Shown: positions 6,859-61,686 of the stretch, in pieces | How positions within the stretch are numbered: the first letter of the stretch is position 1 | Layout of the letters: each line of letters opens with the position of its first letter | Origin: Octopus sinensis | Lineage: Eukaryota | Assembly: GCF_006345805.1 (NCBI RefSeq) | Contig: NC_043005.1 | Coordinates: 12,276,001 to 12,340,000 of the forward strand | Length of the DNA: 64,000 bases | Reading direction: 5' to 3' | Notes under the pieces: model-generated | Database searches by the model: none | Told to the model about the DNA's origin: nothing | Seen by the model: the letters and a program-made list of their open reading frames with translations, nothing else | Program-made: the position numbers and the translations under genes

Positions 6859-7426
6859 ATTCGGTTGTCCGGAAAGTTCGCGCCGACATTTAAAGGAAAG
6901 AAAAAGGTCAATAAGTACGTGCCATTAAATTTTTAATCAACCAAATATGAACCATTTTGTTGCACAATGTGTCTCCATCTTTCCTTTAAGTTGAAAATAC
7001 CTCCTTCCCAGAATTGAGGTGGTTTCATAGCAAAGAATTCATCAAGGTATCTTTTTACATCATCCAAGAAATTTAAATTTTTACCATTAAGACTATTCTG
7101 CAGAGACTGAATAAGTGGAAATCAGAAGGAGCAATATCTGGTGAATATGGAGGGTGGGGTAACACATCCCAGCCGAGCTGCAGCAATTTTTGTCTGGTTT
7201 CCAAAATTTCAAGTACCGAAAATGAACTTTCTTATTTTCCATTTTAAAGGGTTACAGAACTAACACAGGTTATAGGAACATAAACCGTCTTCAACGAAAA
7301 TATAGTTTAAATTGTGATCTAAATGGAGGGGTAGTCAAATCCTATTTTATGGGCTCAACCATGTTCTAATATAAGTCACAAGGTAAGCTACAATAAATCG
7401 GCATGAACTTTCCGGACAACCCAATA
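6859..7426 (-). mobile_element. Non-autonomous mariner deletion derivative with both TIRs
   Basis: About 28-bp TIRs (ATTCGGTTGTCCGGAAAGTTCGCGCCGA / TCGGCATGAACTTTCCGGACAACCCAAT). Minus strand encodes MENKKVHFRYL fused to QKLLQLGWDVLPHPPYSPDIAPSDFHLF (mariner YSPDLAP motif). Confidence 0.93.
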
Positions 7427-7979: not shown

Positions 7980-8059
<80 letters not shown>

Positions 8060-8085
8060 TTCAATTATCACGAAGAATAAAGGCA

Positions 8086-8517
8086 CACAGGGTGTCTAAC
8101 CTGCTAAGAAATGGGAGACAAAACCCCAAGGAACCGCCAAAACCTCTGAAAGTATGACAGAGAATAACAGTAAGCGGGCGAACCGTTAAACAATTAAAAA
8201 CAGCTTATTAAGGATAATGCCAAGTTTTAAGTTCTGAAGCAGTTCTCAGTTGGGCGCAAAATTAAATCAGAACGCTAACGGTTTTCAACTTGATAAATTT
8301 TGAATTTTTTCTCTCAGTAAGTCGTGCTGAAGAGAGTTGAGGCCGGCGAGTCAAGACTTGAAACCAAGGTACATGAATATCCCAATGGCATTATCCTTCA
8401 TGTTTTTAATTGTTTAACCGTTCGCCAGCTTACTGTTGTTCGCTGTCATACTTTCAGTGTTTTCAGTGGTTCACTGGAGTTTTGACTCCTATTTCTAAAT
8501 AGGTTAGACTCCCTGTG
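8086..8517. repeat. Imperfect inverted repeat (arms 8086-8222 and 8386-8517) enclosing a hammerhead motif, abutting (TA)n
   Basis: CACAGGGTGTCTAACC...CTGAAAGTATGACAG...AAGGATAATGCCA is mirrored by TGGCATTATCCTT...CTGTCATACTTTCAG...GGTTAGACTCCCTGTG. Confidence 0.92.
8322..8376 (+). ncRNA. Minimal type I hammerhead ribozyme motif
   Basis: TCGTG-CTGAAGA-GAGTTGA[loop]TCAAGACTT-GAAA-CC-AA-GG-TA-CATGA. Stem I is TCGTG/CATGA, the CUGANGA and GAAA boxes are intact, stem III is short, and the predicted GUA cleavage is after 8371. Confidence 0.75.
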
Positions 8518-8759
8518 CGTTGTTAGTGCTAATTTTAATTTCATAACTCTTTGACGATGTTTAAAAATCTGCCAACCAGCTATATTACTGCTGTTATAAT
8601 TATCAATCCCTTATATTTACCACAGATAGTATTAACAATAATAATATCTCTATGAGTGTTCATGTTTGATTAGTTAATATGCCACTTTACATTTTTAATT
8701 CCACACTTGCGCATTGCTTGTTTTTTTATTTTGTCCACTATATATTATAGTGGAGTTAG

Positions 8760-9307
8760 CTGGGCATCGTCTGTGAGAAAGATAGCACCATAATGCAATT
8801 CACTCTACCAACAATTTGGAAATGACATGCTGAGCTGCATGGCATTTGCACCGGAAGTTCCAGTACGAATAGATGGTGAACAAATTTAACATCCAGTCAA
8901 CATCATTGCGTTTGGAGTGATCAATAGTGATGGCGAAATTATGCCTCCATTCATCTTCCCAGGCGGCCACATGCTCATCACAGAGGTGTCTATTAAGTGC
9001 CCGGAGGAGCTAGTACTGCCCTGGGTAAAAATGGTGGCTGCTGGGACATAATATGTCTAACAACAGGACTGTGAACTATGCCACAGAAGCAGAAGAACCC
9101 AGTCGTAGCTGCCAGATAATTTCTATGACAACATCACCCCTAACAACTGGCCACCTAACGCCCTACACTGCAATCCCCCTTGACTATTATGTGTGGATCG
9201 CAGTTGAGCTAAGGACCAACAAAACTCCTTGTAACATCAAAGATGAACTGTATGCAAGGATTATGGCAGAATTCTCCAACTTAAACAAAGAGACCATCCA
9301 GAAGAGC
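8760..9307 (+). mobile_element. Degenerate DD37D (maT-type, Tc1/mariner superfamily) transposase remnant
   Basis: Reads HPVNIIAFGVINSDGEIMPPFIFP...LPWV...QQD-x37-D(YYVW) with WPPN..CNPLD. Contains stops and frameshifts and is cut off by (TA)n at about 9308. Confidence 0.85.
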
Positions 9308-9343
9308 TATATATATACATATATATATATATATGTATGTATG

Positions 9344-9385
<42 letters not shown>

Positions 9386-21010: not shown

Positions 21011-22009
21011 CAGTGGATAATGGCAGCCATTATCATCGAAAATGAGGAAAAGGAGACATTCTTCAAGCCACGATAACGGACGAAAGAGGAAGGAAAGGGG
21101 GAACATTAGAGATGAGTGTCCAGGCAGACACAGAGGTCTTGGAACGTTTGTCCGAGACGATCATAATGGGAGATATAACTTTAAGAGTATGGGTGGAGGG
21201 CAGAGCTCCTCGGTGTTTCAAATGCGGCCTGAAGGGCCACATAAGAGCTAATTGCCCTCCACTAGCGAAGGAACCAAGTAAAGAACCAACAAAAGAGGTA
21301 GAAGAACCCAAGGAAGAACAGAAAGAGCCAAGAGTGGAAGAGAAACAAGTGGTCGTAGAAGAGGATCCAGCAGAATGGGAATCCATGGGGAAAAGGAAGA
21401 AGAGAAAAAGAAAAAAAGGCAAGCTATACTGAACCCCAACCCATCCCAGCACCACCCGCACCCTTTGTGGCCCACCCTTCCCTTGCAGACGTTAAATCTA
21501 ACCACTCCCCACCAACAACAGACATACAGGATAACTTACAAAATTTTCGTCCCGCAGACCATTATATAGGTGTAATAGACGATGAAGACTTATTTGAAAT
21601 ATTGAAGTATTGGGGAAAGGTTGATTTGTCAGACAGAGGGAATGGGGAGTGGGGTTGAAGTAGTATTATCAGGGGACCATATAAAAGAACTCGAAGAAGA
21701 ACTTAATATGGTTTATTTGTTAGCAAAGAAAAGGATAGAATCGGATAGGAGGTATGAACTTTCAGAAACAAAATGGGGTGAAACTGGAGGACTACATTAT
21801 TTTTTTAATGAAATAGGGAAAGAAGGCAAGTAAGTGATTTTAATTGATGGGGCGGTTAACATCACTCTCATTTCTCATTTTCACCCTTTTCATCTTTTAT
21901 CATACGTTTATGTTTTTGTTTTAATTTGAATTTGAATTTTTGGTGTTTTGTGTCCCCAATTTATTGTGATGTCCCCTCTATGTAAACCCTTTATGAGAAA
22001 TAAAAAAAA
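21011..22009 (+). mobile_element. ORF1/Gag-like zinc-knuckle retroelement with poly(A) tail and no RT (HAL1-like), 5'-truncated and frameshifted
   Basis: ORF 21112-21432 contains RVWVEGRAPRCFKCGLKGHIRANC (CX2CX4HX4C), an E/K-rich linker and W..MGKRKKRK. Coding-like sequence continues across frameshifts to a stop at 21833, then a T-rich 3' UTR, AATAAA and A8 (21999-22009). Confidence 0.75.
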
Positions 22010-51226: not shown

Positions 51227-52217
51227 CAGCATTGTTCATCAGAAAATCACCGAAAATCATGTTTATAATGAACAGCGGTGTGAATTACTGCATTATCATC
51301 CTGAAAGATTACGTTTCCCGCCGGAAACAGTCCCACAATCATAGGATTAATTTGACCTGATAACATGCTTAAATAGTCTTGACTATTAATTCTGACATGA
51401 AGGGAAACCATTGGGCCGGAGGATTTCCAAGATACAGCCCAACTCCACCCCACCAGATCATCACAGATCCTCCTCCATGTTTAAGAGTTTGAAGAATGCA
51501 GTCTGGGTCAAATATTTCTTTTGGCTGTCTGCACACGTATACTCAGCTGGTGGCCGGAAATAAGGTAAAGGATGACTCGTCAGAGAAAATAACATACTTC
51601 CACTGCTCTAGGGACCAATTCTGTAGGTTTTTACTCCACTCTAAACGCTTTGCAACGTTTGTCTTTGAAAGTAGTGGTTTTCTGATTACAGCCCTCCTGC
51701 GATATCTGGCTTTGTGTAGCTCCCGGTGAACAATGTTTGTAGAAACTGGGTTTTCAGGGTGGTTATTTAGCTCTGCAGGAATTTTGGGAGCTTTACATTT
51801 GTGATCCTTTCTAGCGTAAGAATTTCGCTGGTCCTTAGCTGGAAGTTTTGGTTTTCTTCCGGAGTTTTGTTTCGACGAGTGGGTTTTTCCCTCTTTCTCA
51901 AAGGCTGTCATTACTTTCGATACAGTACTTCTTGATACACTAACCAGTGCGGCTGTTTTCATTACGCTAGCGCCTGCCATACGAGCACTAACAATTTGAC
52001 CTCTTTGTATGTCCGACAGATCTGTCATTTTAATGAATTTAATTTCCTTTTTACTGATGATATCTGAAAAAGAACAGCAATTGTAGCAAAACATATTAAG
52101 CAACACTAATAATAAATCAACAAACATAAAAATACACTAGCTTTTGATAGTTTTATAGATATTTCAAAATTATGATGCTATGATGCTAGTAGTTCCCATT
52201 ATTTTGTGTTACCCCTG
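51227..52217 (-). mobile_element. Tc1-family transposon, 5' TIR present, 3'-truncated, disrupted transposase
   Basis: End TA|CAGGGGTAACACAAAATAATGGGAAC. MTDLSDIQRGQIVSARMAGASV...VSRSTVSKV...SGRKPKL (paired-like HTH, GRPR-like motif), WKYVIFSDES (first D) and IFQDDNAVIHTA (second D). The third catalytic residue is absent. Confidence 0.93.
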
Positions 52218-60720: not shown

Positions 60721-61686
60721 GGAAGAAGAAGATGATGATGATGAAGAAGAAGAAGAAGGAGAAGAAGAAGGAGAAGAAGAAGATGATGAAGAAGGAGAAG
60801 AAGAGGAGGAAGAAGTTGAAGAAGAAGAAGGAGAAAAAGATGATGAAGAAGGAGAAGAAGAGGAGGAAGAAGAAGAAGAAGAAGACGAAGAAGAAGAAGG
60901 AGAAGGTGATGAAGAAGGAGAAGAGGAGGAGGAAGAAGTTGAAGGAGAAGAAGGAGAAAAAGATGATGAAGAAGGAGAAGAGGAGGAGGAACAAGAAGAC
61001 GAAGAAGAAGAAGATGATGAAGAAGATGATGAAGAAGAAGAAGAAGAAGAAGAAGGAGAGAAGAAGAAGAAGGAGAAGAAGAAGGAGAAGAAGAAGAAGA
61101 AGAAGAAGGAGAAGAAGAAGAAGATGATGAAGAAGAAGAAGAAGAAGAAGGAGAAGAAGAAGAGGAAGAGGAAAAAGAAGAAGGAGAAGAGGAAGAAGAA
61201 GGAGAAGAAGAAGAGGAAGAGGAAAAAGAAGAAGGAGAAGAGGAAGAAGAAGAAGAAGAAGGAGAAGAAGAAGAAGGAGGAGAAGGAGAAGAAGAAGAAG
61301 AAGAAGAAGGAGACGAAGAAGAAGAAGAAGAGGATGAAGAAGAAGATGATGAAGAAGAAGAAGGAGAAGAAGAAGGAGAAGAAGAGGAAGAGGAAGAAGA
61401 AGAAGGAGAAGAAGAAGAAGAAGAAGAAGAAGAAGAAGAAGACGAAGAAGAAGAAGAAAGAAGAAGAAGAAGATGAAGAAGCAGAAATGAAGAAGATGAT
61501 GAAGGAGAAGGAGAAGAAGAAGGAGAAAGAAGAAGAAGAAGAAGAAGAAGAAGAAGACGAAGAAGAAGAAGGAGAAGAAGAAGAAGGAGAAGAAGAAGGA
61601 GATGAAGAAGAAGAAGAAGAAGAAGAAGAAGAAGAAGAAGGAGGAGGAGAAGAAGAAGGAGATGATGAGAAGAAGAAGAAGAACAA
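60721..61686. repeat. ~960-bp degenerate (GAA)n purine tract (GAA/GGA/GAT variants)
   Basis: Almost pure purine on the + strand, trinucleotide periodicity and internal higher-order duplications. Confidence 0.98.

What the first reader, a model, noticed from the sequence alone, without database searches (positions are those of the whole stretch)
8061..8520. Complete hammerhead ribozyme motif in the loop of a ~135-bp-arm imperfect inverted repeat, anchored at a (TA)n tract
Seen: an intact type I hammerhead core (CUGAAGA, GAAA, GUA site, 5-bp stem I, short near-palindromic stem III ACCAAGGT) at 8322-8376, lying between long inverted arms, with no ORF. Established: Penelope-like elements and non-autonomous retrozymes carry minimal type I hammerheads with palindromic stem III that cleave as dimers. 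Inference: this is a non-coding, self-cleaving, rod-folding mobile RNA (retrozyme-like or viroid-like), possibly mobilised by the Neptune-type PLEs also present in this window.
Basis: partly seen in the sequence, partly recalled or inferred. Interest (0 to 1): 0.75.

Follow-up and report, generated by a model that had tools for sequence, protein, structure and literature searches.

The report
Old retrozyme copy, Penelope-style inversion
The hammerhead motif and the mirror-image arms are real, but they are two back-to-back pieces of an old, protein-free repeat of about 480 bases found at 91 or more places in this genome, and the hairpin is likely a footprint left when a Penelope-type enzyme pasted it in, not a rod-shaped RNA kept by selection.

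Summary
Motif and arms confirmed; 'rod RNA' reading not supported. Window 8223-~8676 is one turn of a ~479-bp non-coding unit that closes on itself (periods 457-481 in 7 tandem loci). It mapped to 91 of 92 loci examined, a lower bound; copies are ~82% identical to consensus. The left arm (8061-8222) is a second, inverted, 5'-truncated piece of the same unit. Head-to-head pairs occur 34 times in 91 loci (0 tail-to-tail), each with its own junction. Arm mismatches show no RNA-pairing bias (G-U 161, A-C 137; 23 pairs). 95 of 135 3' ends fall at two sites ~140 nt apart, often against (TA)n; 14 of 15 classifiable pairs use one of each: the Penelope 'inverted copy plus tail' footprint. The hammerhead shows compensatory changes across 57 copies, so it was likely selected in the source elements. 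No partner ORF, no Penelope coding sequence in the window, no tandem array and no RNA evidence were found. Verdict: an old, decayed member of the known metazoan non-LTR retrozymes. This scan already noted the same footprint in younger families of this genome and in other genomes.

The parts
8004..8060 (.). (TA)n tract at the left end; likely insertion target
   Evidence: TRF; abuts the 3' end of the inverted piece
8061..8222 (-). Inverted, 5'-truncated piece of the unit (unit positions ~15 to ~180, counted from the hammerhead cut site); its 3' end is at site A, against (TA)n
   Evidence: (L001 s1662-1503)
8223..8676 (+). Direct piece, about one full turn of the ~479-bp unit (positions ~335 through the cut site to ~304-318, site B); right end known to about 15 bp
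   Evidence: (L001 s1676-2100)
8322..8376 (+). Type I hammerhead motif, predicted cut after 8371. Core intact; stem I has one G-U; stem III ACCAAGGU departs from the family's perfect palindrome ACCAUGGU
8386..8545 (+). Part of the direct piece that is complementary to the left arm (the 'right arm')
8546..8676 (+). Unpaired 'tail': unit sequence between 3'-end sites A and B, present on one side only

Best explanation
This is an old, decayed genomic copy of a ~479-bp protein-free hammerhead repeat (a non-LTR retrozyme), and its two arms are two pieces of that unit joined 5'-to-5', likely made in one insertion by a borrowed Penelope-like RT/endonuclease. Shown: the closed unit, the dispersed family, copy-specific head-to-head pairs, two preferred 3' ends, (TA)n flanks, and compensatory changes in the hammerhead. 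Inferred mechanism: a multimeric or circular unit RNA is bound by a PLE protein made elsewhere. The endonuclease would nick both strands of a (TA)n tract. One DNA end would prime reverse transcription inside the RNA at site A (~unit 165-200) and the other at site B (~287-342). The two cDNAs stop at variable points and are joined head to head, leaving an inverted repeat with a ~140-bp tail on one side. The arms then decayed neutrally to ~84% identity. The ribozyme likely served the source elements (processing multimers into monomers or circles, probably as a dimer); this lone copy is probably inert. Odds on sub-steps: PLE-type insertion footprint ~0.9; both primings on one RNA molecule ~0.6; circular rather than uncleaved linear template ~0.5.
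For: Closed unit: periods 457-481 bp in 7 of 13 tandem stretches where a self-overlap was measurable. Each of 12 sampled unit positions is crossed continuously by 39-92 of 135 segments, and 5' ends are scattered with no fixed boundary. The five shared upstream-flank pairs among 63 flanks involve repeats; the four flanks I checked each hit the window 6-9 times. 34 head-to-head and 0 tail-to-tail pairs in 91 loci, no junction repeated. 3' ends: 40 at A and 55 at B of 135; 14 of 15 classifiable pairs are A+B (p=5e-4; 17 of 18 and 9 of 9 with wider or narrower windows). (TA)3 within 30 nt of 63 of 135 3' ends, against 18 of 135 5' ends within 20 nt. Arm mismatches G-U 6 / A-C 8 here and 161 / 137 over 23 pairs. 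The window's two arms are each other's closest relatives among 59 segments compared. Hammerhead: 82.6% of cells paired, 85 double-sided changes against 37 in shuffles; stem I pairs A-U 23 / G-C 22 and A-U 37 / G-C 6 / U-A 5. Literature: inverted 5' copy, tail at one end and microsatellite bias in PLEs (PMC8557442; PMC3846280); two internal RT start sites and extension of both strands in vitro (PMC11167929); retrozymes as PLE derivatives (10.64898/2026.07.22.740005). The genome holds long RT + GIY-YIG frames of 775 and 780 aa.
Against: No partner was identified: the unit profile had no significant hit in 30 GIY-YIG loci or 20 longer regions; the hammerhead model hit only other hammerheads, best E 3e-5. 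No array of two or more full units was seen (longest segment 693 nt; 2 of 135 cross the cut site twice). 5' ends are not enriched at the cut site (13 against 8.9 expected, p=0.11), so in vivo cleavage is not shown. The partner arm is the single closest relative in only 6 of 18 pairs, though above the median in all 18. Junction tests for same-RNA priming are marginal (9 of 34 adjacent, p=0.049; 10 of 34 near-symmetric, p=0.050). Windows A and B were chosen after seeing the histogram. Covariation counts share ancestry among subfamilies and are not independent events. No target-site duplication was found at this locus, and its right end lacks an adjacent (TA)n. 2 of 92 loci have clear or moderate PLE coding hits nearby (L076, L193), neither as a contiguous 5' body; a third (L163) is a 22-aa hit.
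Confidence: 0.82

Rival explanations
1. The unit is the terminal repeat (pLTR plus tail) of an autonomous Penelope-like element whose coding body I did not find; the copies are 5'-truncated stubs, some read more than once.
For: PLE pLTRs carry type I hammerheads with palindromic stem III (PMC4209133) and give the same inverted-plus-tail layout. Each DNA search scored only 40 candidates, so rare full-length copies could be missed. The family is old, so a parent could be decayed.
Against: The unit closes on itself with one heritable junction: 39 of 135 segments cross position 340, and 16 exceed one unit length. There is no clustered 5' boundary and no shared upstream body among 63 flanks other than common repeats. 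Longest stop-free run on the repeated consensus is 71 aa; only E 0.02-0.1 antisense hits to PLE proteins. No RT or GIY Pfam hit in 64 of 114 flanking frames scanned.
Confidence: 0.1
2. One reading: the arm-to-arm 460 nt is itself a mobile, rod-folding, self-cleaving (viroid-like) RNA kept by selection.
For: Very stable predicted fold (z -19.5). This copy is one of 6 of 57 with core and stems intact.
Against: No other locus has this junction. Mismatches show no G-U excess. In the full insert the hammerhead stems have pair probability 0.01 or less (such models fold hammerheads poorly, so this is weak). The element extends ~130 bp past the arm. One related DNA run lacks 14 bases of the right arm with no matching loss listed on the left (X6; weak).
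Confidence: 0.03
3. The inversion arose after or apart from insertion (fold-back repair, or two independent insertions into one TA tract).
For: TA tracts are fragile and repeatedly targeted (general knowledge). The partner arm is not the top relative in 12 of 18 pairs.
Against: 34 head-to-head against 0 tail-to-tail pairs, most with junction gaps under 20 bp, and the strict A+B end pairing are not expected from independent events.
Confidence: 0.03
4. This copy has been co-opted by the host as a cis-cleaving element or hairpin-RNA source.
For: Near-intact hammerhead in a copy otherwise ~15% diverged from consensus. The locus is shared with DNA runs under three other organism labels, and the only listed change inside the motif is in loop II (X3, 8345; 19 rows not shown).
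Against: About 1 in 10 copies (6 of 57) pass the same test, and a finding picked for a complete motif is selected for this. The orthologues are too close (about 1-3% apart) to show constraint.
Confidence: 0.02

Closest known systems
Metazoan non-LTR retrozymes (coral, mussel, axolotl: PMC7229834; vertebrate survey: bioRxiv 10.64898/2026.07.22.740005)
   Same: Non-coding unit of a few hundred bp, low GC (34%), one type I hammerhead per unit, head-to-tail closure, dispersed monomer-like copies.
   Different: No dimer-to-multimer arrays found here (longest 1.45 units); family old; expression and circles not shown; frequent head-to-head inverted pairs with two fixed 3' ends.
Insertion units of endonuclease-bearing Penelope-like elements (PMC3846280; PMC8557442; PMC11167929)
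   Same: Partial tandems, adjacent inverted 5'-truncated copy, head-to-head arrangement, tail on one end, two internal 3' ends, AT-rich or microsatellite targets.
   Different: No RT/GIY-YIG frame; the tail is ~140 bp rather than 30-40 bp; no target-site duplication detected at this locus.
Type I hammerheads with short palindromic helix III that work as dimers (PMC4209133)
   Same: Core CUGANGA / GAAA / UH; helix III of 2 bp plus the A-U closing pair with a palindromic loop; long helix II.
   Different: Not the helix-III-less 'minimal' form; helix II has an internal GA/AG loop in most copies; cleavage untested.
L1 twin priming (recalled, no call)
   Same: Inverted 5' piece formed at insertion by priming from both target ends.
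   Different: Here the two primings sit at two fixed internal sites and the pieces often overlap in unit sequence; the adjacency expected of L1 twin priming was only marginal (9 of 34).

Membership tests
Non-LTR retrozyme | Type I hammerhead within the repeat unit | tested here: met
Non-LTR retrozyme | Non-coding unit of roughly 50-1000 bp | tested here: met
   ~479 bp, longest stop-free run 71 aa
Non-LTR retrozyme | Head-to-tail tandem organisation of the unit | tested here: met
   Partial tandems; 16 of 135 segments exceed one unit; periods 457-481
Non-LTR retrozyme ('active' definition of Li et al. 2026) | Two or more consecutive units with complete hammerheads | tested here: not met
   One hammerhead at this locus; 2 of 135 segments cross the cut site twice and neither showed two intact motifs. 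The locus fits that paper's 'monomer' class.
Non-LTR retrozyme | Self-cleavage in vitro | not testable with these tools
   Only indirect: covariation; no 5'-end enrichment at the cut site
Non-LTR retrozyme | Monomeric linear and circular RNA in vivo | tested here: inconclusive
   Three runs guessed to be RNA, contigs only, none covering the motif
Autonomous EN+ Penelope-like element | ORF with RT and GIY-YIG endonuclease | tested here: not met
PLE-type insertion footprint | Adjacent inverted 5'-truncated copy, head to head | tested here: met
   34 head-to-head, 0 tail-to-tail in 91 loci
PLE-type insertion footprint | Tail present at one end only | tested here: met
   14 of 15 classifiable pairs A+B; this locus A+B
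PLE-type insertion footprint | AT-rich or microsatellite target | tested here: met
   Microsatellite within 30 nt of 74 of 135 3' ends
PLE-type insertion footprint | Target-site duplication | tested here: inconclusive
   None of 6 nt or more found at this locus; other loci not tested
Viroid-like rod RNA | Self-complementary rod conserved as part of the replicating unit | tested here: not met
   Rod is locus-specific with strand-neutral mismatches

The most novel reading that the evidence does not exclude
The family is a fossil record of a Penelope-type RT copying one small ribozyme RNA circle from two fixed start sites at once, one per target strand. Several subfamilies kept the hammerhead by compensatory change, so retrozyme spread would depend on both cleavage and trans-acting PLE double priming, with sites A and B as the cis signals to test.
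Probability: 0.4. Interest if true: 0.55.

Novelty: new member of a known kind. Interest (0 to 1): 0.3.

Why it matters
The locus itself is an inert relic. The family adds genomic support for a link that is proposed but not experimentally shown: that animal retrozymes are mobilised by PLE proteins. It names two candidate RT start sites that can be tried in the existing in vitro PLE assay. Younger families in this genome, already noted by the scan, would be better substrates than this ~82%-identity family.

Tried and rejected
Rfam: no hammerhead family. Penelope coding sequence in the window: 199 of 210 stop-free frames scanned with Pfam (11 overlapping microsatellite stretches left out), no RT or GIY-YIG; tblastn of frames from GIY-YIG loci gave no PLE-protein hit (the hits in 34 came from non-PLE frames and common repeats). 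Partner search: 30 GIY-YIG loci and 20 longer regions, no unit match. The 605-aa frame next to a hammerhead in L143 has RT but no GIY-YIG, reads like a LINE RT (recalled) and was dropped. Enrichment of 5' ends at the cut site looked suggestive in the first loci (ends at unit positions 2-15) but was not significant on 135 segments. L1-style adjacency and fold-back symmetry at junctions were both marginal. RNA: X23, X24 and X15 (RNA guessed, contigs only) do not cover the motif; this is no evidence of silence. An energy evaluation of a hand-written hammerhead structure was invalid and was ignored. One search failed on a script error and was rerun. One search printed its results before a save error, and its ends ran into TA tracts, so ends were recomputed with masking. 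The unit consensus folds better than shuffles as a circle (z -4.0) but the window copy does not (z -0.7); not relied on.

Full report
OBSERVATION. The motif is present as described: stem I 8322-26/8372-76, CUGAAGA 8327-33, GAAA 8360-63, stem III ACCAAGGU, predicted cut after 8371. It is the only match to my type I descriptor in the window, against 0 in 60 simulated 64-kb windows. Rfam does not detect it. The arms span 8058-8222 and 8386-8545 with 128 of 160 columns Watson-Crick, next to a (TA)n tract at 8004-8060. No frame over 54 aa. Single contigs of DNA runs span the structure, including runs under three other organism labels at about 1-3% difference. The insertion is therefore real, and since its arms differ by ~16% (125 of 148 identical) it is probably older than those splits. 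The scan's earlier notes call this genome an octopus; I did not test that.

WHAT IT IS. Four DNA searches and two pattern searches of the own genome (each DNA search scored only its 40 best candidates) gave 92 distinct loci that I mapped, duplicates removed and the window included; 91 yielded 135 segments. Other copies match the hammerhead and right arm, continue ~130 bp further, then return to the sequence found at 8223-8234. The unit is closed: period 457-481 bp in 7 of 13 tandem stretches where it could be measured, consensus 479 bp, 34% GC. Each of 12 sampled positions is crossed by 39-92 segments; 16 segments exceed one unit, the longest is 693 nt, and 61 run through the hammerhead cut site. 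Median identity to consensus is 82%. 5' ends are scattered, and shared upstream flanks are common repeats. No RT or GIY-YIG adjoins the unit as a 5' body; L076 has a PLE fragment ~850 bp downstream and L193 a weak RT hit nearby.

THE ARMS. In unit coordinates (1 = first base after the cut) the window holds an inverted piece 15-180 joined 5'-to-5' to a direct piece ~335 through the cut to ~304-318. This is common: 34 head-to-head pairs, 0 tail-to-tail, no junction shared. If a rod RNA were selected, G-U should outnumber A-C on the transcribed strand. It does not: 6 against 8 here, 161 against 137 over 23 pairs. The two arms here are each other's closest relatives among 59 segments; family-wide this holds for 6 of 18 pairs, with all 18 above the median.

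THE ENDS. 95 of 135 3' ends fall in two windows, A (165-200, 40 ends) and B (287-342, 55 ends), chosen after viewing the histogram; 74 of 135 have a microsatellite within 30 nt. Of 15 pairs with both ends classifiable, 14 are A+B (p=5e-4); 19 pairs had at least one end elsewhere. Wider and narrower windows gave 17 of 18 and 9 of 9. The window's locus is A+B, so 8546-~8676 is the unpaired tail.

THE RIBOZYME. Across 57 copies, 25 keep the core and 6 keep core and stems, this copy among them (20 or so of these loci came from a search that required the core, so these fractions are inflated). Stem I occurs as UCAUG/CAUGA, UCAUA/UAUGA, UCGUG/CACGA and UCUUG/CAAGA; 85 cells change on both sides against 37 in shuffles, and slid controls pair at most 43% against 83%. 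These are a few subfamily-level events, not independent counts, and two of the five measures did not exceed shuffles. This copy has drifted: a G-U in stem I, a mismatch in upper stem II, and ACCAAGGU for the palindrome ACCAUGGU. 5' ends are not enriched at the cut site (13 against 8.9, p=0.11).

MECHANISM (inferred). A PLE protein made elsewhere would bind multimeric or circular unit RNA, nick both strands of a TA tract, and prime cDNA at A from one end and B from the other; the truncated cDNAs are joined head to head. The basis is the footprint above plus PMC11167929 (parts 1-2 of 4 read): a PLE protein cuts AT-rich DNA, extends both strands and starts at two internal sites that define the tail. 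The genome has long RT + GIY-YIG frames, but no partner sharing sequence with the unit was found. Whether both primings use one RNA molecule, and whether it is circular, is not settled: junction tests were marginal.

COMPARISON. It works like, and by structure belongs to, the metazoan non-LTR retrozymes (PMC7229834, passages; bioRxiv 10.64898/2026.07.22.740005, parts 1-3 of 5), as a monomer-class relic: the 'two intact units' criterion is not met, and cleavage and circles are untested. The inverted copy and one-sided tail are described for PLEs (PMC8557442, passages; PMC3846280, passages), and dimer-type hammerheads in PMC4209133 (passages). Searches for octopus + hammerhead ribozyme + Penelope, cephalopod + retrozyme, twin priming + Penelope + inverted, and non-autonomous Penelope + tail listed no paper on this family; only listings were seen for the rest. 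Supplements were not read, and repeat databases were not available; either may already hold the family.

EARLIER SCAN NOTES. No look-alike stretch by sequence. By words and place, the scan has noted the same two-ended, head-to-head footprint in several younger hammerhead families of this genome and in other genomes. My A+B result came before those look-ups. The notes are unchecked and are not independent evidence.

VERDICT. Real feature, known kind, new old family; the striking hairpin is an insertion footprint. Interest 0.3.

Noticed in passing
window ~8691-9305: High-copy repeat directly right of the element, with broken frames containing a PLDYYVW motif typical of Tc1/mariner transposases (label recalled), followed by (TA)n at 9308-9385; it may have split the element from its right TA flank.
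   Followed up: partly
   Followed up: partly
window 51546-52136 (-): 197-aa frame with a Tc3-type transposase HTH domain, E 8.6e-10.
   Followed up: no
window 21046-21429 (+): Zinc knuckle just below the Pfam cut-off.
   Followed up: no
window 60722-61683: (GAA)n tract of about 960 bp.
   Followed up: no
L138, L139, L141, L143; L140, L142: Two other hammerhead families share the stem III ACCAUGGU but have different stem II; L138 has a 98%-identical inverted copy 2.9 kb upstream.
   Followed up: partly
L126:7286-8228: Young 98%-identical head-to-head inverted pair, 227 bp, with a hammerhead, next to a 775-aa RT + GIY-YIG frame.
   Followed up: partly
unit positions ~296-325 (e.g. L002, L147, L149, L168): A short hairpin lies just upstream of most site-B ends and appears in altered form across subfamilies; candidate RT start signal, covariation not tested.
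   Followed up: no
L010:1309-1404 and L126 ~7170-7260: An unrelated near-perfect palindromic insertion centred on a short self-complementary core.
   Followed up: no
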